Source of the DNA: a virus
Lineage: Duplodnaviria > Caudoviricetes
IMG/VR virus record: IMGVR_UViG_2754412319_000001
Coordinates: 1 to 64,000 of that record
Direction: 5' to 3' (one strand)
DNA: 64,000 nt
Positions 4,814-15,383 of the stretch are shown piece after piece. Position numbers and translations under genes: made by a program. How positions within the stretch are numbered: position 1 is the stretch's first letter; each line of letters starts with the position of its first letter. Under the pieces are notes generated by a model, which was not told where the DNA came from, searched no databases, and was given only the letters and a program-made list of their open reading frames with translations.

Positions 4814-5431
4814 TTACGCAGGAATGTTGTTGCCGACGAAGTAGCCGACGTACGACTTGCCCCCGTCATAGGTTTCGAACATGAACGCGTCGCTCACGCC
4901 TTGCGCGTACGACAGGACGGGCGGGACGCCACCGTTCCACTTGATAATTGCCGGCCAGCTGTTGACCTTGTTCGAGCCGGTGCCCTGCTTGAGCACGAGC
5001 GAGAACGAGCGCACGAAGTTCGCATCCGTTGCCGGGTTGCTGATCGTGATCGCCGTCTGCGGCGCGTTGATCGTCGCGTTGAAGCAGCCGATGCCGGTCG
5101 ACAGGTCCAGGTCGAGGCCGTTGCCGGTCACGTTCATGCGCGCGATCGGCGTCTTGTTGACGTCGCCCGTATCGCCCTTGTCGCCCTTGTCGCCCTTGAT
5201 GCTGTAGCCGTTCGGCCAGACGCCGCCCGTCTTCGGGCCGAACATGAAGCTGTTGTCCAGGTTGATGTACGAGTCGCCGTCGTTACCGACGTTGTTGGCC
5301 GGCGCTCCGCGGCCGTAAAGCAGTTTCATCGGGGTCAGCTGTCCGAGGTTGTTGTAGACCGGACTCATCATCAGGATGAGCGGTTGGCCGTCCGGGTTGG
5401 TTGGGGCGAGGGGGAGGGAAGCCGCACTCAT
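4814..5431 (-). CDS. Short tail fibre-like protein with a collagen-like G-X-Y stretch
   Basis: 205 aa with KGDKGDKGDTGD. C-terminal QGTGSNKVNSWPAIIKWNGGVPPVLS..D.F.F is typical of fibre C-terminal domains. Confidence 0.6.
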   Translation of the reverse strand: MSAASLPLAPTNPDGQPLILMMSPVYNNLGQLTPMKLLYGRGAPANNVGNDGDSYINLDNSFMFGPKTGGVWPNGYSIKGDKGDKGDTGDVNKTPIARMNVTGNGLDLDLSTGIGCFNATINAPQTAITISNPATDANFVRSFSLVLKQGTGSNKVNSWPAIIKWNGGVPPVLSYAQGVSDAFMFETYDGGKSYVGYFVGNNIPA

Positions 5432-7347: not shown

Positions 7348-7378
7348 TGCTAAGTGAACCTAAGTGGTTCACTTAGCA
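7348..7378. terminator. Strong hairpin ending the tail fibre-radical SAM unit
   Basis: Perfect 13 bp inverted repeat TGCTAAGTGAACC / GGTTCACTTAGCA with a 5 nt loop, directly after the 7391 stop codon. Confidence 0.65.
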
Positions 7379-7390
7379 CCTTTTCTGCGA

Positions 7391-7732
7391 TTACACGGGC
7401 ATCGGATCAACCGACGTAGACGCGCCTTCAATCGGTCGCTGCTGCGCAGCAAGCTTCCGGTTGGCGTCGTCGAGGTTCTTCTGAAGCTGGTCTGCGCGCG
7501 ATTGGCTCGCGACCAGTGCGTTCTTCGTTGCTTCGAGTGCCGCGTTCGCTTCGTCGAGCGCCGATTGCAGAGTTGCGTTTGCTGCGGCCAAGCCTTGCAC
7601 TTGCTGTTCGGCTTGACCAGCTGCGACGCTCGCGTGAGCGAGGCGATCTGCCAGCTCGTTGCGCTGTTGCGTCAGCACGTGGTGCATCATCTGGCCTTCG
7701 TTCATCAGGGGAGTGGCTTGTTGTTCGTTCAT
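7391..7732 (-). CDS. Coiled-coil protein of unknown function
   Basis: 113 aa, Ala/Gln/Asn-rich heptad pattern; ATGA overlap with the radical SAM gene. Confidence 0.75.
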   Translation of the reverse strand: MNEQQATPLMNEGQMMHHVLTQQRNELADRLAHASVAAGQAEQQVQGLAAANATLQSALDEANAALEATKNALVASQSRADQLQKNLDDANRKLAAQQRPIEGASTSVDPMPV

Positions 7733-9081
7733 GGCGTTTCCGTTTTGATCTGAATGATTTTGCGGGTGGTGGTCCGCTTATTGGCCAGAGGTCCGAAGAC
7801 AATCTGGCGATGTTCAGGCAGCGTGCCGGTCAACGGCTCGATACGCTGAAGGGTGCAGCCAGTCAGCTCATAGAGAGCCGTGGCCAGGAATACGACGTTG
7901 TCGCTGTATGCGCTCTCGCAGGTGACATCCCACAGGTCGCCTTCGAGGAACATGCAACTGCCCTTGCAGAGCTGAAGTACGGGGCACGTATTGCAGTGCT
8001 CGCGGGTCGACCAGTGGCGCGAGGACTTGAGCTGGACAGCATCCATGTCCTGAACGTTGCCGGCGAGATGAGGCTGGCCGTTCGGCGCTACCGCTACCGC
8101 GGATACGTTCTGACACGTCAGCACGTTGCCCTTCAGGTCCATCGTCAGCGTGTCAGCGCGGTCGCTGCCGCACTTCTGGCCGAGCGTGCGCGCTTCGCGC
8201 CGAGTGACCACGGACTCGCCGAAGTCGACGATCTTCTGCGTGACGCTGTCGAAGTTGAGCGCGTTTCCGCTCTTCAGCTCGTCGAAGGCGCGGGTGCGGT
8301 AGCGGACGTGCTCGTGCGCGTCGTGAAACGACATCGAGCGGCCACCCTCGTCGTACGCGTCGACGAACATGCCTTCGCCGATCGGCACGTCGGTGTCGCC
8401 CGTCAGCTTGACGAAGTAGTCACGCACCGCGCGCCGCGATGTGCTGTCCTTGTGCAGCATCGCGTTGAAGGAAATCCGGTTCAGCGGGCGCAGGCGCTGG
8501 TACAGCATGAGGATCGCTTCGCGCGTCAAGGGGTTATCGAGGGGGTCTTGACCCCGTGCCTTCTGCCCCGGCCCGTCGTGCGAGATGCCGATCGTGAACC
8601 CCATCGAAATGAGCCATCCGGCCTTCATGTGGTCGATCAGGGAGCCGTTCGTGATCATCCGAAGGGTGATGCCGGGGTAACGCATCCGCAGCCGCTCAGC
8701 GAGCGGTTTGAGCGTCTTCCAGTACACCATCGGCTCACCACCCCAAAACTCGACCGTCGCGTCCTCGGTGAGATAGCAGTTCGCCATGAGGTTGGACATG
8801 AACACGTCGACGTCGCCGGGGTTGGTCTGGTCCGCGTGCGGCACGAATCGCTGCGAGCAGTATTCGCAGCTGTAGTTGCACGAGAGGCCCAGCTGGATCT
8901 TCAGCGTGCGGACGACACGGTCCTTGTGGCCAGGGTGCGCGGCCGACGCGCGTGGCTCGCTCGGGCGCGTGGGCACCACGTCGAATCCGCGGTGGTCGGT
9001 GAGGGTGCTGCGCTGGTTGTTGTAGAAAAAGTCACGGCCGACGCCAGAGGCGTCGACCGTCTTCAGGCGAAAGGTGGTCAT
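7729..9081 (-). CDS. Radical SAM enzyme with SPASM domain
   Basis: CNYSCEYC (CxxxCxxC), FWGGEP, ITNGSL, ISHDGP. C-terminal C-X13-G-X4-C ... CxxC-X5-C-X3-C-X11-C is the seven-Cys SPASM pattern. Confidence 0.95.
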   Translation of the reverse strand: MTTFRLKTVDASGVGRDFFYNNQRSTLTDHRGFDVVPTRPSEPRASAAHPGHKDRVVRTLKIQLGLSCNYSCEYCSQRFVPHADQTNPGDVDVFMSNLMANCYLTEDATVEFWGGEPMVYWKTLKPLAERLRMRYPGITLRMITNGSLIDHMKAGWLISMGFTIGISHDGPGQKARGQDPLDNPLTREAILMLYQRLRPLNRISFNAMLHKDSTSRRAVRDYFVKLTGDTDVPIGEGMFVDAYDEGGRSMSFHDAHEHVRYRTRAFDELKSGNALNFDSVTQKIVDFGESVVTRREARTLGQKCGSDRADTLTMDLKGNVLTCQNVSAVAVAPNGQPHLAGNVQDMDAVQLKSSRHWSTREHCNTCPVLQLCKGSCMFLEGDLWDVTCESAYSDNVVFLATALYELTGCTLQRIEPLTGTLPEHRQIVFGPLANKRTTTRKIIQIKTETP

Positions 9082-9788
9082 CTGGTGGCTAGGTACGTCG
9101 CCTGCCGCGCGCGGAGCGCGGTCTTGAAGGCGACCATGTCGTTGAAGGCGAGGTCCCCATCCTTCATTTTCAGCACACCAGCGTCAAGGAGTTTCTGCCG
9201 TTTATCAGATGGAAACGCGTCGGCCGGCAGGATGGTGAACAGCAGCTCGGTGAGCAGATCCACCTGCGCTTCGAGCGCGGCGAGCGCGTCGTTCGTCTTC
9301 GTGTCTTTGAGCAGCTTGTGCTTCGCGTGCCAGCGGTCGATGACCGGCGCGACGGAGGGCATGAGCCGCTTGATGACCATGTCGCCGCCTTCATCCGTCG
9401 TGTCGACGGTTGGGGCGGGGTTGGCCGGCTCGTCGGTGAAGCAGAAGAAGACGGCAGTGTAGTCGTCCTTCGCCTCGTTGATGCCGATGACCACGACGGG
9501 CATAAACGAGTCGATGTTCTTGCGGAGCAGAGCAGACGACATGCTGTCCTTCGACTCGTGGATGTCGCTGCCCCACACGACCACGTACTGACCGCTGCGG
9601 GCACGGACCAGATGCAGGACGTCGTTACCGAACTCGACCTTGTTCAAGTCGAACTGCCAGTAGAGGCTCAGTTCCGTCGACTGCATCGTGAAGCCGGTGG
9701 GGGTCTGGATGACGGTGACGATGCCGTACGCCTTGGCGCGATCCTCATCCGACATGTCCTTGGGCATGAGCGCCTTATGCACGAGCAT
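9078..9788 (-). CDS. Hypothetical protein between the tail fibre and the radical SAM gene
   Basis: 236 aa with a beta-rich N half and a helical C half (DALAALEAQVDLLTELL); overlaps both neighbours. Confidence 0.75.
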   Translation of the reverse strand: MLVHKALMPKDMSDEDRAKAYGIVTVIQTPTGFTMQSTELSLYWQFDLNKVEFGNDVLHLVRARSGQYVVVWGSDIHESKDSMSSALLRKNIDSFMPVVVIGINEAKDDYTAVFFCFTDEPANPAPTVDTTDEGGDMVIKRLMPSVAPVIDRWHAKHKLLKDTKTNDALAALEAQVDLLTELLFTILPADAFPSDKRQKLLDAGVLKMKDGDLAFNDMVAFKTALRARQATYLATR

Positions 9789-11253
9789 GGTCGAGTCCCT
9801 TCCAGTCGAAAGTGTTGTAATCGAAGTCGAACCCGTTCGCGCCGGCCGAGACCACGTAACCTTCGGCGATGATCATGTGACACCCGCCGACGATCGGCAG
9901 GTAGACCTTCGTGTTGGGGTTCATGTCGTGCTTCACCACACGCTTGCGTTGCCAGCCGTCGATGTGGGCGAACTCATCCCAGCGGTCGTCCAAAAGGCGA
10001 ACATCGTCGTTGTTCGGCAGGCCCTTCACGACGCCCAGCTCGACGCCACGCATCCACGACTGCTTGTCCACCACACCGAACGCCTGCGCGCCGTCGCGGC
10101 GCGTCCAGAAAGCGTGATCATCCGTCCAGAAGAACGAGCGATCCTCGAACGAGACCATCTTCCGGTCGCCCAGCAGCGGCGTCTCGACGTCGAGCACGGC
10201 TTCAGGCCCGAGCGGCGTCATGACCATGTCGCCGACCTTGATCTTCTCGACATACTCCCAGCTGCCGTCAGCCATCATGATCCGCGTGCCGGCCGGGAAG
10301 CAGGTGCAGGCGCAGTTGCAGTTGCAGTTGCCCCACACGCGGACGAGCTGGACCTGACTGCCCGAGCGCTGGAGGTAGAAGGACTGCGGCGCGATCACGC
10401 CGTTGCCGACCCACGGAAACCCACCGGGGCGCCATCCGTCGCCACCATCGGTCGTGCCGACCGAATTGAGGCGGTCTTCCGCGCCCTTGCCGGCGAAGCA
10501 GTTTTCCAGCCAGCCATAGCGCGACGTCCAGATCCCGCCCGTGCCCTGTTCGAGCGTGTGCGTGTCGGTCGCGAAGCCCTTGCCGCCGTACACCCGCACG
10601 TAGCTGAAGTCGGACATGTGGATGCCGCCGCCATACGTCTGGTTGTACCAGCCGACTTGACCGTTCGAGCGGAACCAGCCGTTGTTGTACAGCTCGGCCA
10701 CCGTGTCGCCGTTGCGGCCGAGCTTGGCGTTGTTCAGCGAGTTGTAGAGGTAGTCGGCGTAGTTCTTCGTCGCGGCGTGGTAGGGCTGCGACGGGTCGCC
10801 CGAGAGCGTGAGCGGGCCGGTCATCTGGTCGCCAGAACGCAGCACGCGGTTGTTCGCCGCGGTGGTTGCCGCCTGCGCCTGCGCGTCGACGTACCGCTTC
10901 GGCGTGGCATGCAGCGCCTGCGACGGATCTCCCGAGAGCGTGAGCGGGCCGGTCATGCTGTCGCCGCTCTTCGAGACACGCGTGCCGATTGCGGCCGACA
11001 GAGCATCGATCGAATCCTGGTAGGCGATCGTGCGGTTGTAGTCGATCTCGACCACCCACGTGACCGGCGTGAGGCTCGTGAGGCGGAAGAGCTTGTTCTG
11101 CGACGTACTCAGGTACGGCATGCCGATCTGAAGGCCGTTGATCGGGAACGAGTCGCCAGCGTTGCGCGAGATCGCCGTGAGGTCGTTGTTGAGCAGCGGA
11201 GCCAGCGAGTCTGAGACCCGCTGACTGTCCGGAATCTGTGTGTAGTTCTGCAT
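9775..11253 (-). CDS. Tail fibre with C-terminal Cys-rich motif and Hint (Hedgehog/intein) domain
   Basis: Two SGDxMTGPLTLSGDPSQxxHAxxKxYxD fibre repeats, GWFRSNGQVGWYNQTYGGG segment, NCNCNCACT, then CFPAGT...TDDH...VYLPIVGGCHMIIAEG. Start placed at MQNYTQ (11253); the track start 11307 is possible. Confidence 0.85.
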   Translation of the reverse strand: MQNYTQIPDSQRVSDSLAPLLNNDLTAISRNAGDSFPINGLQIGMPYLSTSQNKLFRLTSLTPVTWVVEIDYNRTIAYQDSIDALSAAIGTRVSKSGDSMTGPLTLSGDPSQALHATPKRYVDAQAQAATTAANNRVLRSGDQMTGPLTLSGDPSQPYHAATKNYADYLYNSLNNAKLGRNGDTVAELYNNGWFRSNGQVGWYNQTYGGGIHMSDFSYVRVYGGKGFATDTHTLEQGTGGIWTSRYGWLENCFAGKGAEDRLNSVGTTDGGDGWRPGGFPWVGNGVIAPQSFYLQRSGSQVQLVRVWGNCNCNCACTCFPAGTRIMMADGSWEYVEKIKVGDMVMTPLGPEAVLDVETPLLGDRKMVSFEDRSFFWTDDHAFWTRRDGAQAFGVVDKQSWMRGVELGVVKGLPNNDDVRLLDDRWDEFAHIDGWQRKRVVKHDMNPNTKVYLPIVGGCHMIIAEGYVVSAGANGFDFDYNTFDWKGLDHARA

Positions 11254-11314: not shown

Positions 11315-11776
11315 TCAGTACGCGTGCGCCGCCCAAGTCAAAGCGCCATCGATCTTCGCCTTATCAGCGACCCGCTCAAGGAAACAGTCGAAATACGTAC
11401 GTGTGATCGAGCCGGCGACCAGTTTCGCCGTGCAGGGGTCGCTCGCACTCTGCACGGTCAGTGTCACCTTTGGCGGAACGTGAAAAGGCCGCGCGAAGAA
11501 GATTCGCGTCGGGGTCCCACCGTTGATGATGTTGTCGCCGCTGTCGAACATGTCAGGGACATCGACGACAACGCTCAGCTTGTTGATGACCCCGCGGTCG
11601 CCGGATGTCGAGTTCATCGAGATCCGGAAGAGGGCGGTCTGATACTCATAGTCGCCCTGCACGAACGGTTGAAACGGCGTATAGCCAGTGGGGCTATCCG
11701 ACGTGAGCAAGGCGAGGAAACCATCGTCGTCGAGTACCTTCTTCGACACGGTGATGTCGGAAATTACGTGTGTCAT
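11315..11776 (-). CDS. Tail tip accessory protein
   Basis: 153 aa from MTHVISDI, immediately after the gpJ-like stop. FFARPFHVPPKVTLT resembles H-type-lectin-like fibre domains. Confidence 0.6.
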   Translation of the reverse strand: MTHVISDITVSKKVLDDDGFLALLTSDSPTGYTPFQPFVQGDYEYQTALFRISMNSTSGDRGVINKLSVVVDVPDMFDSGDNIINGGTPTRIFFARPFHVPPKVTLTVQSASDPCTAKLVAGSITRTYFDCFLERVADKAKIDGALTWAAHAY

Positions 11777-11777
11777 A

Positions 11778-14700
11778 TCAGTACAGGCTGTAGTTGACGG
11801 TTGCGCCGATGCCGCCGACGTTGAGGGTTCCTCGGAACATCGAGCCACCTTCGCGGCCGACGTAGAGAGTGCGCGTGCTGGCGTCCTGCGAAATGGCGAC
11901 CAAGTAGCGTTCGCCGATTTCGAGGTCGATCGGAATGGAGATCTTCTTGCCGTTGTTGTCGATTGCGTAGACGCTCATCGTAGACGCTTGATAGCCGATC
12001 GTGATCTGCGCACTATTGCGTCCGCAGAAGCTCGACCACGTGTCGTCGTTGTTGTCGTACGGAATGATCCAGAAGCTCGTCGAGAACACGTTCGGGATGT
12101 TCACGCTGAACGTCACGCGCGTCGGCACCGGTTGGAGTGGTGCGGTCTGCACGAACAGGCCGGACCCATACTTACCGGCGCGGTAGCTGACTGTTTGCTG
12201 CTCGGTCGCCGCACCATCATCGCCGGGGCCGGAGAATCCGAGAGTATTGTCCAGCTTGATCGCGTACAACACGTCGGGCGGAAGCGCCGTGAGCGTCGCG
12301 ATCTCCGCGCGGTAGTTGATCGACGAGATATCCCCTTGTGCTGCCCACGGCATCTGCGCCTTCGCGTCGTTCCACGGAAACGTCGCATCGTTCCATCGCA
12401 TGGTGAAGTCGACAATCGCGTCGAGGCCGATGAAGAGCGTGTTCTGCGCACGGAAGCTTGTCGGCAGCGACACGCTGAAGATGTACTCTGCCTTCGCCTT
12501 GCCATCGTCCATCCGCAGCGAATCACCGTAGATGACCATGTTGTAGCGCATCCCCGTGAAGCCTTTCGTCAGTTCGTCCGTCTCGTAGACGATGTTCGTG
12601 TTGTCGAGCTGGGCCACGTCGGTCGTGACGAACGTTGCCTTGTCCGAGTAGATGCCGGGGGCCGCGATCGCCTTCAACCAGAACTTGCGCGTGCCACCTG
12701 CGCCGGCCGTAAGACCAAAGCTGGTAGATTTCGTCTTCGCGACGAACACTGCCGTCGCCCAGGAATCCCCCTCGCGGATCTCGTAGTCGAGGATGTTGTC
12801 TTCCGGGTTCGGCTTCCAACTCATCTCGATTCGATTCGACGACTGCACGGCGATGACGCCCCGGACGGCCGAGGGGCCGTACAGTGCGATCGTCTGGATC
12901 GTCGGGATCGGCGAGAAGTTGTGACTCGTGTCGATCGCGCGGATCATGAACGAGTAGGCCCCACCGGTATCGGTCGTCCATGCGAACTGCGTCGCCGCGT
13001 AGTCGGTCACGAGAACTGTTCCGGTTTCCCAGGACGTGCCAAGGCGGATCTCATAACCAGCGCGGTCGAGATCCGGGATTGGGTCCCACTTCAGCAGGAT
13101 GTCGTTCTGACGGCGGATGACGTTGAAGTTCGTTACGTTGCTGGGCGGTTCATCCTTCCCGACGCAGCGATAGTTCCACGTCGACAGCTGCGAGCTGCGG
13201 TAATCGAACGTGCTGATCGCCCACACCGTGATGTCGTAGTCGACACCGCTCTTGCAAGGACCAAGGAACACGCTTTCGCCGGTCGTGCTCGCGGTGAGCC
13301 ACGTCGACTGCGAACTCTCCTTCCACTGCACGTCGTAGCGCTTGACGATCGCGTTCGCAGGCGCGTCCCACGATACTAGGATACGAGCCTGAATCGAGCC
13401 GTCCTGACCGATGATCAGCTCCTCCGTACCGGACGCCATGACCATGTTCATCGGCGGGGGAGGGATCAACGGGTTTTTGAACGAATATTGCGTGCTGCCG
13501 ATCGGCACGCAGTTGTCTGCTGCGGCCTGCTTGTTGATGTTGATTTCGACGGCCGTAACCTTGTAGGTGTCAGGCTGGTTGTCTACCGGCTCGATCGCGA
13601 TCGTACGGAACGGCTTCGCGATCCCGAACCCACCATTGTCCTCGATCGTGAAGACGGTGCGATCCGGAATGTTTGGCGGAATGACGCCGCTCATGATCGT
13701 CAGCTCGGTCACGGCCCCGATCTTGCCAGGGGTAACGACGAAATTCGACAACCCGTCGACGGACTGGAGCCGCAGGTTGTAGTTCTGGTTGACCGTGAAG
13801 TAGATCGGGTCTCGCAGGTAGATCTTGTTGTTGAAGATCGACTTGATCCGGCCACCAGACGACCAGCCGGTGATTGGGTCGGCGATATAGATCGGCTTGT
13901 ACGGGTCGATGACGCGGCCGAGGCGCGCGGTCACGAACGACACCGTCGCACACTCAGTAGTCGACGTGATCAGCTGATAGGTGGCCCGACGAACAGCCTC
14001 GTGCTCGTTCGTGCAGCCAATCGCCTGAAACTGGTAGGGAATGCTGCCGTTGAGCGCGATGTGCTCTTCGTTGGCGACACGTCGGTGGTCAACGTTCCAG
14101 TCGATGTCGGGGTTGACGAACTGAACCTCGTAGTCGTTGTAGCGCGTCGACATGTCCGTGAACGTGTAGCTGAAGCCTTCCGGCGTCACGTTCTCGGGCG
14201 TGAACATCAAGGTCGGTTCTTCCCATCGGTCGACGCGCAGATGGACCATTCCAGTCGCGTCGTCGAAGATAACCGCGCCGAAGCTGCCGGCGACATACTT
14301 CAGCATGTCGAGGCCGGTCTGCTGGTCGGTCAGGGCGAGGTTGAAGGTGTAGCGCGGTTGCCATCCACCGCGGCCGTCCGGGACCATCTCGTCGCACCAC
14401 CGGCCCGCATCGTAAAAATCGAAGCGGTTGCACGTGATCCACGGGTAATACTTCGCGAGACCCCACGTGGGGTTCATGATGAGGTTGTACAGAATCCATG
14501 CCGGGTTGTTCGTCCATGCGAGCTTGAACGTCCCATTCCACGGGCCGCTCGCGTCGTACGAGTGCATGTCGCCGTTGTAGTTCGTCGGAACCAGGATCTC
14601 CAGCCCGTCATAAATACCGGCGAAGTCCGGGATCGAGCTGAACTGGCTCGTCGCCTTGGCGACCAGATGGAGGAGCGCGACTTGGTTGTACGAGCGGTTG

Positions 14701-15383
14701 CCTTTCGTGACCATCTGGAAGCTTTCCCAGGTAAGGTCACAAAATTCCGTCGTACTGGCGTCGGGATTCTCCTTCAGTACCCGGATCACCCAGTTGTCAT
14801 TGATGCGAGGCACGTCCCACGCATAGTCGACCATGTAGCCGCTCGTGGTCTTGCCCGTCACCTTGATCAAACCACCTTGAACTTCCGACCATGCGGCGTA
14901 GCTGGATGCCGGGCGATACTGAATTCGGAAGCGGGCCGTGTTGTTGAAGGAGCCGTCGTTGTTCTGGATGTAAAGGACGTTGAACTGCATCCGCACTTGC
15001 AGCTGGTCGATAACGCCCTTCAGCGACTGGTCGGTCTGACGGTTGACCCACGTTCCTTGAAATAGACGTGTGCCGACCTGGGTGTTCGAGCTTTCACCCC
15101 CGAGGACGTAGTTGACCGGAGAGTCGTGCGCGGTGCCGAGCTTGACGCCGAGGTTGAACGAACTGAAATTCAGCGATCCATCCTGCGACATGAGCGGCGT
15201 CCCGCCAACATAGAAGCTCTTCATTCCGTCTACCAGCCCTCGAATGGGGCCTTGAGACAGTCCAAGGACGATCTCGACGACGTCTCGGGAAAACAGGTTG
15301 TCGTCCGTTCGCGTGGGCGAGCTGGAGCCACCGCCGCTCGCGCCACGGATGCTCTGGATAGGACGTTCTTCTTCGACAATCAT
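11778..15383 (-). CDS. Central tail tip / host-specificity protein (lambda gpJ-like) with FN3-like repeats
   Basis: 1201 aa. LSQGPIRGLV, WTNNPAWILYNL, PRYTFN and GCTNEHEAVRRA are J-like motifs; PPSNVTNF..LKWDP is FN3-like. Confidence 0.9.
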   Translation of the reverse strand: MIVEEERPIQSIRGASGGGSSSPTRTDDNLFSRDVVEIVLGLSQGPIRGLVDGMKSFYVGGTPLMSQDGSLNFSSFNLGVKLGTAHDSPVNYVLGGESSNTQVGTRLFQGTWVNRQTDQSLKGVIDQLQVRMQFNVLYIQNNDGSFNNTARFRIQYRPASSYAAWSEVQGGLIKVTGKTTSGYMVDYAWDVPRINDNWVIRVLKENPDASTTEFCDLTWESFQMVTKGNRSYNQVALLHLVAKATSQFSSIPDFAGIYDGLEILVPTNYNGDMHSYDASGPWNGTFKLAWTNNPAWILYNLIMNPTWGLAKYYPWITCNRFDFYDAGRWCDEMVPDGRGGWQPRYTFNLALTDQQTGLDMLKYVAGSFGAVIFDDATGMVHLRVDRWEEPTLMFTPENVTPEGFSYTFTDMSTRYNDYEVQFVNPDIDWNVDHRRVANEEHIALNGSIPYQFQAIGCTNEHEAVRRATYQLITSTTECATVSFVTARLGRVIDPYKPIYIADPITGWSSGGRIKSIFNNKIYLRDPIYFTVNQNYNLRLQSVDGLSNFVVTPGKIGAVTELTIMSGVIPPNIPDRTVFTIEDNGGFGIAKPFRTIAIEPVDNQPDTYKVTAVEININKQAAADNCVPIGSTQYSFKNPLIPPPPMNMVMASGTEELIIGQDGSIQARILVSWDAPANAIVKRYDVQWKESSQSTWLTASTTGESVFLGPCKSGVDYDITVWAISTFDYRSSQLSTWNYRCVGKDEPPSNVTNFNVIRRQNDILLKWDPIPDLDRAGYEIRLGTSWETGTVLVTDYAATQFAWTTDTGGAYSFMIRAIDTSHNFSPIPTIQTIALYGPSAVRGVIAVQSSNRIEMSWKPNPEDNILDYEIREGDSWATAVFVAKTKSTSFGLTAGAGGTRKFWLKAIAAPGIYSDKATFVTTDVAQLDNTNIVYETDELTKGFTGMRYNMVIYGDSLRMDDGKAKAEYIFSVSLPTSFRAQNTLFIGLDAIVDFTMRWNDATFPWNDAKAQMPWAAQGDISSINYRAEIATLTALPPDVLYAIKLDNTLGFSGPGDDGAATEQQTVSYRAGKYGSGLFVQTAPLQPVPTRVTFSVNIPNVFSTSFWIIPYDNNDDTWSSFCGRNSAQITIGYQASTMSVYAIDNNGKKISIPIDLEIGERYLVAISQDASTRTLYVGREGGSMFRGTLNVGGIGATVNYSLY

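What the first reader, a model, noticed from the sequence alone, without database searches (positions are those of the whole stretch)
7391..11253. Candidate virion-protein maturation system: tail fibre-(NC)3ACT-Hint, unknown protein, radical SAM/SPASM, coiled coil
Seen: four overlapping minus-strand genes (14 bp, ATGA and ATGA overlaps) closed by a perfect 13 bp hairpin at 7348-7378. The fibre ends ...WGNCNCNCACT|CFPAGT (10300-10329) followed by a Hint domain. Two genes downstream is a radical SAM enzyme with CxxxCxxC and a full seven-Cys SPASM motif. Known: SPASM enzymes typically modify peptides or proteins, often at Cys (sactipeptide/ranthipeptide thioethers, anSME Cys-to-formylglycine), and their Cys-rich substrates are usually encoded next door. 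Inference: the Hint domain cleaves itself off to expose a Cys-rich C-terminal tag that the rSAM enzyme cross-links or modifies, or loads with metal/Fe-S. That would be RiPP-like chemistry applied to a phage receptor-binding fibre. I know of no characterised example but could not check the literature.
Basis: partly seen in the sequence, partly recalled or inferred. Interest (0 to 1): 0.92.

Follow-up and report, generated by a model that had tools for sequence, protein, structure and literature searches.

The report
Phage fibre cysteine-ladder maturation module
A Burkholderia prophage encodes a tail fibre ending in an Asn-Cys ladder capped by a self-cutting Hint domain, and a radical-SAM enzyme two genes away accompanies such ladders in almost every phage sampled. 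So these viruses probably modify their host-binding fibre tips enzymatically, which no searched paper describes.

Summary
Four translationally coupled minus-strand genes follow the tail-tip gene J: a fibre with ...WGNCNCNCACT|C-Hint, ORF236, a radical SAM/SPASM enzyme and a coiled-coil protein. A hairpin closes the set.

- Of the 43 viral rSAM loci, all but two of those with about 6 kb of upstream DNA have a same-strand upstream ORF ending in (Asn-Cys)n. So do 47 of 48 bacterial-genome loci.
- Of 47 viral loci picked only for a C-terminal (NC)4 tail, 44 carry the rSAM downstream. Only 1 of 50 loci with the pattern in short or internal ORFs does (p = 8e-23).

The Hint is optional. Homologous fibres (Cupriavidus, 305 aa) stop right after the ladder and still sit beside the rSAM. 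So Hint cleavage would give the same mature C-terminus. The Hint fold, Cys1 and TxxH are confirmed.

ORF236 and the coiled coil are lineage-specific accessories. The chemistry is inferred, not shown: most likely Cys thioether cross-links, as made by NxxcB, PapB and CrpC.

No paper found describes this. The scan has already reported the same system on other DNA (for example e1-5845251, e1-5849278). I rate it a new variant of a known kind, with high interest.

The parts
9775..11253 (-). Tail fibre gene, 492 aa: fibre body 1-308, Asn-Cys ladder 309-317, Hint domain 318-492
   Evidence: It lies after the J-like gene and the H-lectin ORF. It matches phrog_16641 'tail fiber' at 5e-10 and Shufflon_N at 29.2 bits against a cut-off of 27.5. 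Homologues include JWF gp028 and the Cupriavidus fibre P0044.
10303..10329 (-). Asn-Cys ladder NCNCNCACT (N309-T317), the predicted mature C-terminus and the proposed rSAM substrate
   Evidence: It is identical in relatives whose fibres are 64-96% identical. N309, C310, N311, C312 and C316 are nearly invariant, and C314 is invariant, across 27 fibres. The same kind of tail ends rSAM-linked ORFs in more than 100 loci.
9778..10302 (-). Hint (bacterial intein-like) autoprocessing domain, 175 aa, starting at Cys318
   Evidence: C1, T60 and H63 (TxxH) are invariant. A profile hits inteins in the PDB: 8w20 at 4e-10 and PI-SceI at 7e-7. The AF2 model has pLDDT 83-92 in this region. Foldseek matches BIL2 6y75 at E = 1.8e-8 and TM 0.77, and also the C. 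thermocellum BIL domain 2lwy and Hedgehog 1at0.
9078..9788 (-). ORF236, a lineage-specific accessory of unknown fold (N-terminal beta domain plus C-terminal helices)
   Evidence: It has no Pfam, NCBIfam, PHROG or PADLOC family. Only 21 cluster homologues were found. The AF2 model has pLDDT 87.8, with no convincing PDB match. Homologues hold the same position in JWF-like phages, L017, L018 and a Negativicutes prophage.
7729..9081 (-). Radical SAM/SPASM enzyme, 450 aa, the proposed ladder maturase
   Evidence: It matches phrog_1802 at 1.2e-59 and the TIGR04085 SPASM domain above its cut-off. Three plus seven cysteines are invariant. PDB relatives by sequence are 8vpo, anSME 4k37 and CteB 5wgg. 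The family has 270 clusters (50% identity) at E <= 1e-30.
7391..7732 (-). Coiled-coil protein, 113 aa, co-transcribed, role unknown
   Evidence: Only weak coiled-coil-type family hits were found. Homologues follow the rSAM in JWF-like phages. An 80-aa protein with the same QRN motif follows it in the Cupriavidus prophage. It is absent from other lineages.
7348..7378 (.). Palindromic hairpin closing the gene set, ahead of the lysis cassette
   Evidence: The scan finds 13 pairs. RNA folding gives z = -4.85. JWF has a terminator annotated at the same position.
11315..11848 (-). Context: H-type-lectin-like ORF between J and the fibre
   Evidence: PF09458 scores 22.6 bits, just under its cut-off of 24. 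The ORF is conserved in JWF-like loci and is longer in L019 and L021.
11778..15383 (-). Context: J-like central tail fibre (tip attachment protein)
   Evidence: PF24801 FNIII-A_GpJ and PF13550 Phage-tail_3 both score above their cut-offs.

Best explanation
This is a two-part virion maturation system carried by many tailed phages. One part is a tail-fibre or small fibre-tip protein whose C-terminus is an (Asn-Cys)n ladder. The other is a dedicated radical SAM/SPASM enzyme that modifies that ladder in the infected cell's reducing cytoplasm, before lysis.

In this prophage the ladder (NCNCNCACT) is capped by a Hint domain. Cys318 would make an N-S acyl shift, assisted by the TxxH motif. The thioester would then be resolved, the Hint would leave, and the fibre would end at Thr317. 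That is the same kind of end that Hint-less relatives are simply translated with.

The most likely chemistry is thioether cross-linking. A ladder Cys thiol would bind the open iron site of auxiliary cluster I. The 5'-deoxyadenosyl radical would abstract a hydrogen from an acceptor residue, most probably the C-beta or C-alpha of Asn. A C-S bond would form, within one chain or between the three chains of the fibre. The result would be a redox-insensitive, protease-resistant tip.

What is shown: the anatomy, the Hint fold and its catalytic residues, the cluster-binding cysteines, and the two-way genomic coupling. What is inferred: that the enzyme acts on the ladder, that the Hint cleaves, and the thioether chemistry. 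ORF236 and the coiled-coil protein are lineage-specific helpers of unknown role.
For: 1. Forward coupling. Among 43 IMG/VR loci with rSAM homologues (34-98% identity), all with enough upstream DNA except L044 and the truncated L016 have a same-strand upstream ORF ending in (NC)n. Among bacterial genomes the figure is 47 of 48 loci with at least 6 kb upstream.

2. Reverse coupling, with a control. Of 120 IMG/VR loci picked only by the DNA pattern (AAYTGY)4, 70 have it as a C-terminal tail of an ORF of at least 60 aa. Of the 47 of those with at least 3 kb downstream, 44 have the rSAM, always on the same strand, and 2 of the 3 exceptions have a more distant rSAM. Of the 50 loci with the pattern in short or internal ORFs, 1 has the rSAM. 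Fisher p = 8e-23.

3. The pair persists while everything else changes.
- Fibre backbones range from 67 to 709 aa.
- Accessory genes differ: the ORF236 family, families c1, c2 and c4, 2OG-oxygenase-like proteins, and a second rSAM.
- Phage types differ: the JWF siphovirus, the Ackermannviridae phage RSP15, and the jumbo phage RP12, which has an unannotated 65-aa ladder ORF.
- Hosts range from Burkholderiales to a Negativicutes prophage.

4. The Hint is dispensable. Fibres P0044 and P0046 are 48-49% identical over the fibre body and end ...NNNCNCNCNCANN* without a Hint, yet lie three genes from an rSAM that is 50% identical.

5. The enzyme is a SPASM maturase type. Its best NCBIfam hits are the geopeptide, PapB, QhpD and anSME families, and the PapB alignment runs nearly full length. 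Its PDB relatives are anSME and CteB. Only seven SPASM cysteines are invariant. From my own knowledge, CteB likewise has seven and leaves one auxiliary-cluster site free for a substrate thiol, whereas anSME uses eight ligands.

6. Ladder composition. The x position in (xC)n is Asn in 82% of cases, then Ala, then Asp. The ladder starts with Asn in 126 of 132 tails, and 60 of 132 end exactly on Cys. NxxcB makes Cys-to-Asn beta-thioethers in NxxC motifs and also accepts Ala, Gln and Asp (PMC9389541). (NC)n contains overlapping NxxC motifs.

7. A SPASM rSAM that installs thioethers on a whole Cys-rich protein has a precedent in CrpC/CrpA (PMC13692751).

8. The genes are translationally coupled in the late tail operon.
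Against: - There is no biochemical or proteomic evidence that the ladder is modified, that the Hint cleaves, or that the fibre sits in the virion.
- The enzyme falls far below the cut-off of every characterised family, for example PapB at 47.7 bits against 340. So the chemistry cannot be transferred by homology.
- No recognisable RRE was found. About 55-60 residues precede the rSAM core.
- AF2 models the ladder at pLDDT below 50, so nothing is known of its geometry or of contacts between chains.
- Alternating Cys is also a metal-thiolate motif.
- One peripheral homologue at 29% identity (L252) has no ladder nearby, so the coupling has limits.
- NC dipeptides also occur separated from the ladder by two residues in 27 of 132 tails. 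This fits an 'NC unit' at least as well as a strict NxxC register.
Confidence: 0.66

Rival explanations
1. The rSAM does modify the ladder, but not by thioether formation. Candidates are anSME-like oxidation of Cys to formylglycine (a reactive aldehyde tip), epimerisation, C-C or C-O cross-links, or Cys desulfurisation.
For: anSME is among the closest solved relatives, with a near full-length alignment (4k37, residues 66-381). It is also among the NCBIfam hits. No characterised family's cut-off is reached, so the reaction type is open. Some lineages add 2OG-oxygenase-like proteins or a second rSAM, which suggests multi-step chemistry.
Against: From my own knowledge, anSME substrates carry a C/S-x-P/A-x-R motif, which the ladder lacks. 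Strict conservation of Cys paired with Asn, Ala or Asp acceptors matches the acceptor range reported for NxxcB. Seven rather than eight SPASM cysteines fits the thiol-binding, thioether-forming type.
Confidence: 0.15
2. The ladder is a metal-thiolate or Fe-S binding site at the tip of the trimeric fibre, a cysteine counterpart of the HxH iron sites of T4 gp37. The rSAM-like protein would help load or assemble it, or would act on something else.
For: Alternating C-x-C is typical of metallothionein-type metal sites, and metal ions held by repeated residues are known in fibre tips (both points from my own knowledge). AF2 gives no structure for the ladder, so nothing excludes it.
Against: A metal site needs no dedicated enzyme. 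Yet the rSAM accompanies the ladder in 44 of 47 loci, and 47 of 48 rSAM loci have a ladder. The enzyme keeps the SAM-cluster cysteines and the full SPASM set, so it is built for radical catalysis. The strong preference for Asn at the x position (82%) has no obvious role in metal binding.
Confidence: 0.1
3. The linkage is by co-inheritance only. The rSAM would act on another target, such as a nucleotide, a cofactor, host envelope sugars or another virion protein, and the ladder would be an unrelated fibre feature.
For: Weak viperin and MoaA hits exist. Phage rSAMs of other kinds exist, for example in Campylobacter phages.
Against: Those hits cover only the generic core, residues about 54-175. 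Viperin has no SPASM domain. The pair stays together across unrelated fibre backbones, accessory genes, phage morphotypes and host phyla, while the neighbouring genes are replaced. That is not what hitch-hiking predicts.
Confidence: 0.05
4. The ladder proteins are RiPP precursors for released peptides, such as a bacteriocin or a signal, rather than structural parts.
For: Many ladder ORFs are small (67-130 aa) and occur in tandem, as RiPP precursors do.
Against: In this window the ladder sits on a 308-aa fibre body, after Hint removal, with a conserved fibre N-terminus behind gene J. No protease or exporter gene is present in the set. After Hint cleavage the ladder stays attached to the fibre. 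The small versions lie next to Peptidase_S74 fibres.
Confidence: 0.03

Closest known systems
NxxcB / NxxcA (streptococcal RaS-RiPP; PMC9389541 and its ref. 91)
   Same: It is a radical SAM enzyme with auxiliary Fe-S clusters. It links a Cys thiol to the beta-carbon of an Asn three residues upstream, and it tolerates Ala, Gln and Asp as acceptor. The phage ladder (NC)n contains overlapping NxxC motifs and uses Asn, then Ala, then Asp at the x position.
   Different: Its substrate is a short leader-dependent peptide with a single motif, from a quorum-regulated operon. Here the substrate is a repeated ladder at the C-terminus of a virion fibre. I had no NxxcB sequence or model to compare, and the phage family is defined only by phrog_1802.
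PapB (freyrasin ranthipeptide maturase, NF047865), CteB and the SCIFF maturases
   Same: They share the SPASM architecture. PapB gives the best near full-length NCBIfam alignment (residues 58-377), and CteB is a PDB relative. They make repeated Cys thioethers on Cys-rich cores.
   Different: The score is 47.7 bits against a cut-off of 340, so this is not a member. No RRE domain was found. In PapB the donor Cys lies upstream of the acceptor (C-x3-D), whereas the ladder starts with the acceptor-type residue and ends with Cys.
CrpC / CrpA of Methanococcus voltae (TIGR04463; PMC13692751) and QhpD / QhpC
   Same: A SPASM rSAM installs thioethers on a whole Cys-rich protein encoded next door, rather than on a small peptide.
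   Different: These are cellular proteins with C-x-x-Q/D repeats inside long domains. TIGR04463 scores 28.1 against a cut-off of 525. The paper does not mention phages.
Bacterial intein-like (BIL) and Hedgehog-type Hint autoprocessing domains; functionally, the Peptidase_S74 intramolecular chaperone of phage fibres
   Same: The Hint fold, Cys1 and TxxH are present. It is a C-terminal domain of a fibre that is expected to remove itself, as S74 domains do. S74 fibres occur in sister ladder loci.
   Different: There is no C-extein and no terminal Asn, so it cannot splice. It is unrelated in fold to S74. Cleavage has not been shown.
CXXX-repeat rSAM systems in phage tail modules
   Same: The theme is the same: a Cys-repeat protein beside a SPASM rSAM, inside phage tail-fibre gene blocks.
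   Different: The repeat differs (Cys every fourth residue over long domains, against an alternating Asn-Cys C-terminal tail), and so does the enzyme family. I did not test this system here.

Membership tests
Radical SAM superfamily | CxxxCxxC motif that binds the SAM-cleaving [4Fe-4S] cluster | tested here: met
   C68, C72 and C75 are invariant in 24 homologues. Fer4_12 scores 24.2 against a cut-off of 22. PF04055 scores 25.4, below its cut-off of 29.5.
SPASM subfamily (TIGR04085) | C-terminal seven-Cys motif Cx9-15Gx4C ... Cx2Cx5Cx3C ... C for two auxiliary clusters | tested here: met
   C304-x13-G318-x4-C323, C363-x2-C366-x5-C372-x3-C376 and C388 are all invariant. TIGR04085 scores 31.6 against a cut-off of 27.
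phrog_1802 (phage radical SAM proteins) | Profile match over most of the protein | tested here: met
   E = 1.2e-59, residues 25-417.
PapB-type ranthipeptide maturase (NF047865) | Score above the curated cut-off; N-terminal RRE | tested here: not met
   47.7 bits against a cut-off of 340. Only about 55-60 residues precede the rSAM core, and no RRE family was hit.
Anaerobic sulfatase maturase (TIGR03942) | Score above the cut-off; eight auxiliary-cluster Cys ligands; substrate motif C/S-x-P/A-x-R | tested here: not met
   42.8 bits against a cut-off of 349. Seven, not eight, invariant SPASM-region cysteines. The ladder lacks the motif.
CrpC family (TIGR04463) | Score above the curated cut-off | tested here: not met
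   28.1 bits against a cut-off of 525.
NxxcB-type beta-thioether synthase | Sequence membership of the enzyme; NxxC motif in the substrate; Cys-Asn beta-thioether product | tested here: inconclusive
   The substrate motif is present as overlapping NxxC within (NC)n. No NxxcB model or sequence was available in the libraries used. The product cannot be tested here.
Viperin / nucleotide-modifying rSAM | Full-length match; no SPASM domain | tested here: not met
   NF038283 scores 44.8 against a cut-off of 180, and the PADLOC pVip hits cover only residues 66-174. A SPASM domain is present.
Hint superfamily (BIL / Hedgehog-type autoprocessing domain) | Hint fold; nucleophile at position 1; TxxH in block B | tested here: met
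   C1, T60 and H63 are invariant. PDB profile hits reach 4e-10. Foldseek gives E = 1.8e-8 and TM 0.77 to BIL2 6y75, plus 2lwy and 1at0. Single-sequence Pfam scores fall just below the cut-off, at 29.5 against 32.1.
Intein (protein splicing) | C-terminal Asn, a +1 nucleophile and a C-extein | tested here: not met
   The domain ends the protein (...WKGLDHARA*). There is no terminal HN and no C-extein.
Phage tail fibre | Position in the tail module; fibre-type sequence; presence in the virion | tested here: inconclusive
   Position after the K, I and J homologues and a match to phrog_16641 'tail fiber' at 5e-10 are both met. There are local matches to T4-type long tail fibres. Virion presence cannot be tested here.

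The most novel reading that the evidence does not exclude
Tailed phages of several morphotypes and host phyla use a dedicated radical SAM enzyme to cross-link the tips of their receptor-binding fibres covalently through an Asn-Cys ladder, possibly between the three chains. This would be the first enzymatic RiPP-type cross-link in a virus particle. It would also be a way to build disulfide-like stability inside a reducing cytoplasm. In some lineages a Hint domain acts as a removable cap that generates the ladder C-terminus.
Probability: 0.55. Interest if true: 0.88.

Novelty: new variant of a known kind. Interest (0 to 1): 0.8.

Why it matters
If true, RiPP-type radical chemistry extends from secreted peptides to virus structural proteins, and a new post-translational step enters tail-fibre assembly.

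It would explain how phages that assemble in a reducing cytoplasm can give extracellular fibre tips covalent, redox-proof cross-links.

It offers a compact two-gene tag-and-enzyme pair, a C-terminal (NC)n tail plus one enzyme, that could be tried for stabilising proteins.

It matters for phage engineering. Receptor-binding proteins moved between phages without their rSAM may misfold or be unstable.

The family is large, with 270 clusters at 50% identity, and I found no paper describing it. The hypothesis is directly testable by mass spectrometry.

Tried and rejected
No binding test was made.
- ORF236 gave nothing. It has no family in Pfam, NCBIfam, PHROGs or PADLOC. The ESM Atlas gave no usable hit. 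Foldseek against the PDB found nothing at E <= 0.001. VIA-align's best hits were generic helical matches of Z 5-6, plus a weak N-domain match to SPP1 gp22 (Z 5.1, 96 aligned residues, rmsd 3.5), below a meaningful level.
- hhalign found no relation between the ORF236 family and accessory families c1, c2, c4 and c13 (probability <= 2%). Only c1 and c2 show a faint C-terminal similarity (23.6%).
- The ORFs downstream of the rSAM are not one family across lineages.
- AF2 of the whole fibre as a monomer gave a poor shaft and ladder (mean pLDDT 61, ladder below 50). Only the Hint part is usable.
- Five full-text searches found no paper on an rSAM acting on a phage fibre or on Asn-Cys repeats. PMC12801897 mentions a cyanophage rSAM only as an 'antibiotic synthesis gene'.
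- Of three peripheral rSAM homologues tried, two were on contigs too short to judge. The third (L252, 29% identity) has no ladder.
- I rejected the idea that ORF236 tracks the Hint. L017 and L018 have ORF236 homologues with Hint-less tails, and L012 and L038-L040 have a Hint with c1-type accessories.
- There are no tRNA genes in the window.

Full report
**Anatomy**

The window is 64 kb of a 79-kb IMG/VR provirus record. Its closest relatives are prophages of Burkholderia paludis MSh1 (rSAM 97% identical) and B. ubonensis. It shares its tail and lysis gene order with the Achromobacter siphovirus JWF.

The minus strand reads as follows:
- K-like JAB, I and J-like tail-tip genes;
- an H-lectin-like ORF (11315-11848);
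- the fibre (9775-11253);
- ORF236 (9078-9788);
- the rSAM (7729-9081);
- a 113-aa coiled-coil ORF (7391-7732);
- a hairpin (7348-7378);
- then a GH19 endolysin, holins and an Rz spanin.

The hairpin is real: 13 pairs by the scan, 16 by folding, z = -4.85. Its T-run on the gene strand is weak.

**The fibre and its Hint**

The fibre reads ...QVQLVRVWG-NCNCNCACT-CFPAGT.... Window 10300-10329 encodes N309-C318 exactly.

The last 175 residues are a Hint domain.
- In an alignment of ten such domains (20-93% identical), C1, T60 and H63 (TxxH) are invariant.
- The profile finds inteins in the PDB: 8w20 at 4e-10 and PI-SceI at 7e-7.
- The AF2 model of this part (pLDDT 83-92) superposes on the BIL2 domain (6y75, E = 1.8e-8, TM 0.77), inteins, the C. 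thermocellum BIL domain and the Hedgehog autoprocessing domain.

The domain ends the protein and has no terminal Asn or C-extein. So it can cleave at its N-terminus but cannot splice.

**The enzyme**

- The CxxxCxxC cysteines (C68/72/75) and seven SPASM cysteines (C304, C323, C363, C366, C372, C376, C388) are invariant in 24 homologues. No eighth conserved Cys exists.
- The protein belongs to phrog_1802 (1.2e-59).
- In NCBIfam only the SPASM domain model passes its cut-off. The best family hits (geopeptide, PapB, QhpD, anSME, CcpM, DynA) are all peptide or protein maturases, and all fall far below their cut-offs. The viperin and MoaA hits cover only the generic core.
- PDB relatives by sequence are 8vpo, anSME and CteB.
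- The family has 270 clusters (50% identity) at E <= 1e-30.

**The decisive test: co-occurrence**

Forward direction.
- A scan of IMG/VR with the rSAM gave 43 loci (34-98% identical). Every locus with enough upstream DNA, except L044 (34% identical) and L016 (cut by the contig end), has a same-strand upstream ORF whose C-terminus is an (xC)n run dominated by Asn.
- A profile scan of one genome per bacterial species gave 180 relatives, of which 80 were fetched. Of 48 loci with at least 6 kb upstream, 45 had such a tail by a strict pattern. Two more had variants: L201 with a Hint, and L222 with an acidic extension. That makes 47 of 48.
- In 23 of the 38 largest genome loci a J-like gene lies on the same strand, so these are prophage tail modules.

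Reverse direction.
- I scanned IMG/VR for the bare DNA pattern (AAYTGY)4, without reference to the enzyme. This gave 120 loci.
- In 70 loci the pattern is the C-terminal tail of an ORF of at least 60 aa. Fifty of these carry the rSAM, always on the same strand. With at least 3 kb downstream the figure is 44 of 47, and two of the three exceptions have a more distant rSAM.
- In the other 50 loci the pattern lies in short or internal ORFs (low-complexity DNA, giant-virus bins). Only one of these has the rSAM.
- Fisher's p is 8e-23.

**What varies and what does not**

Across 132 distinct tails:
- the ladder begins with Asn in 126;
- 60 end exactly on Cys;
- the x position is 82% Asn, then Ala, then Asp;
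- the ladder has 3-11 Cys;
- carrier proteins range from 67 to 709 aa.

The genes between tail and enzyme differ by lineage. They include the ORF236 family, two other unknown families (c1 and c4, as in RSP15 ORF047 and ORF046), family c2, weak 2OG-oxygenase-like proteins and a second rSAM. hhalign finds no relation between ORF236 and the others. The ORF after the enzyme also differs by lineage.

The pair itself occurs in several settings:
- the siphovirus JWF;
- the Ackermannviridae phage RSP15, whose 'side tail fibre' ends ...NTNCQCGN;
- the jumbo phage RP12, where I found an unannotated 65-aa ORF ending ...NCNCNCACTRGSL;
- a Negativicutes prophage.

So only the ladder and the enzyme are universal.

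**The Hint is an optional cap**

Close homologues of this very fibre end at the ladder with no Hint:
- P0044 and P0046 from Cupriavidus (305 aa, 48-49% identical over the fibre body) end ...SNNNCNCNCNCANN*;
- P0088 and P0109 end ...NCNCNCGNG* and ...NCNCNCACDCCC*.

P0044 lies behind gene J and three genes ahead of an rSAM that is 50% identical to the window's. Hint cleavage at T317|C318 would therefore reproduce the C-terminus that most relatives have by translation. This is the best available evidence that the Hint removes itself.

**Mechanism**

Shown: the anatomy, the cofactor-binding residues, the Hint fold and catalytic residues, operon coupling, and the two-way association.

Inferred: the rSAM modifies the ladder. 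The most likely reaction is thioether formation, for four reasons.
1. All the closest families are Cys-directed SPASM maturases.
2. Seven SPASM cysteines leave one auxiliary-cluster site free. From my own knowledge, this is as in CteB and unlike the eight ligands of anSME.
3. NxxcB links Cys to the beta-carbon of an Asn three residues upstream and accepts Ala, Gln and Asp (PMC9389541). That is the same residue set as the ladder's x position, and (NC)n is a run of overlapping NxxC motifs.
4. CrpC shows that a SPASM enzyme can install thioethers on a whole Cys-rich protein (PMC13692751).

A functional rationale, also inferred: virions assemble in a reducing cytoplasm where disulfides do not form. 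A radical enzyme could fix the fibre tip covalently before release.

Two points stay open. NC dipeptides set two residues apart from the ladder occur in 27 of 132 tails, so the register is unsettled. It is also unknown whether links form within a chain or between chains.

**Rivals**

- Another modification of the ladder (0.15).
- A metal-thiolate tip (0.10).
- Mere co-inheritance (0.05).
- Released RiPP peptides (0.03).

The evidence for and against each is in its own section.

**Limits**

One peripheral homologue (L252, 29% identical, in a T4-like contig with three rSAMs) has no ladder. The ladder itself is unmodelled. No paper in five searches describes the system.

**Earlier notes of this scan**

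The scan has already reported the same system on other DNA. My tests were run independently on this window and agree with those notes.

**Verdict**

The system is a new variant of the 'SPASM maturase plus Cys-rich substrate' kind, here applied to a virion fibre. Interest is high.

Noticed in passing
L252:5242-5514, 8719-9105, 9108-9668 (T4-like metagenome contig): This contig carries three radical SAM genes, one of them 29% identical to the window's enzyme, and no Asn-Cys ladder. Three small paralogues instead begin MK[IV]R[QN]GFVSNSSSSSF, which may be a different substrate motif.
   Followed up: partly
L003:990-1187 (Ralstonia jumbo phage RP12, NC_041911): An unannotated 65-aa ORF ending ...YGSNCNCNCACTRGSL lies in the gap between ORF074 and ORF075, about 1 kb upstream of three radical SAM genes. 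ORF074 looks like a ladder-less paralogue.
   Followed up: partly
L064 (IMG/VR contig 3300044622_000764): Here the ladder ...NCNCNCNC is followed by a 169-aa C-terminal domain (SKIICTKLFSLG...) that did not match my Hint start pattern. The rSAM lies next to it. This may be a second kind of removable cap.
   Followed up: no
L222 (Paraburkholderia sp. BCC1886), ORF ending 43 nt before the rSAM: The ladder ...YNCNCDC is followed by an 18-aa Gly/Asp-rich acidic tail rather than a stop or a Hint.
   Followed up: no
P0080, P0081 (metagenome proteins, 468-477 aa): These proteins have a signal-peptide-like N-terminus and carry the same Hint subfamily after ...PPSCT|CFPAGN. They have no Asn-Cys ladder and no fibre body, so this Hint type is not confined to ladder fibres.
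   Followed up: no
P0064 (318 aa, metagenome): About 150 residues of dense NC/xC motifs run straight into ...NCACACNCT|CFPAGS and a Hint. It is an extreme, almost all-ladder version.
   Followed up: no
L250:7304-8083 (Negativicutes MAG prophage): A 259-aa ORF lies between a Hint-capped fibre (...ATNCSNC|CFAPGT) and a 344-aa rSAM. It is homologous to the C-terminal helical half of ORF236 (30% identity, E = 1e-11). So the ORF236 helical module recurs across phyla in the same position.
   Followed up: partly
window 4814-5431 (-): A 205-aa ORF after the lysis cassette has a short collagen-like GDKGDKGDTGD stretch and no Pfam family. It lies where JWF has gp036 and gp037, annotated as tail proteins, so it may be a second fibre or tail component placed after the lysis genes.
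   Followed up: no
L028-L037, L043, L045 (IMG/VR): Small proteins of 117-124 aa carry two Cys-rich segments: an internal CGWACACNACNSACNCNCGNC and the C-terminal ladder. They lie directly after a fibre with a Peptidase_S74 chaperone domain and before a family-c2 accessory and the rSAM.
   Followed up: partly
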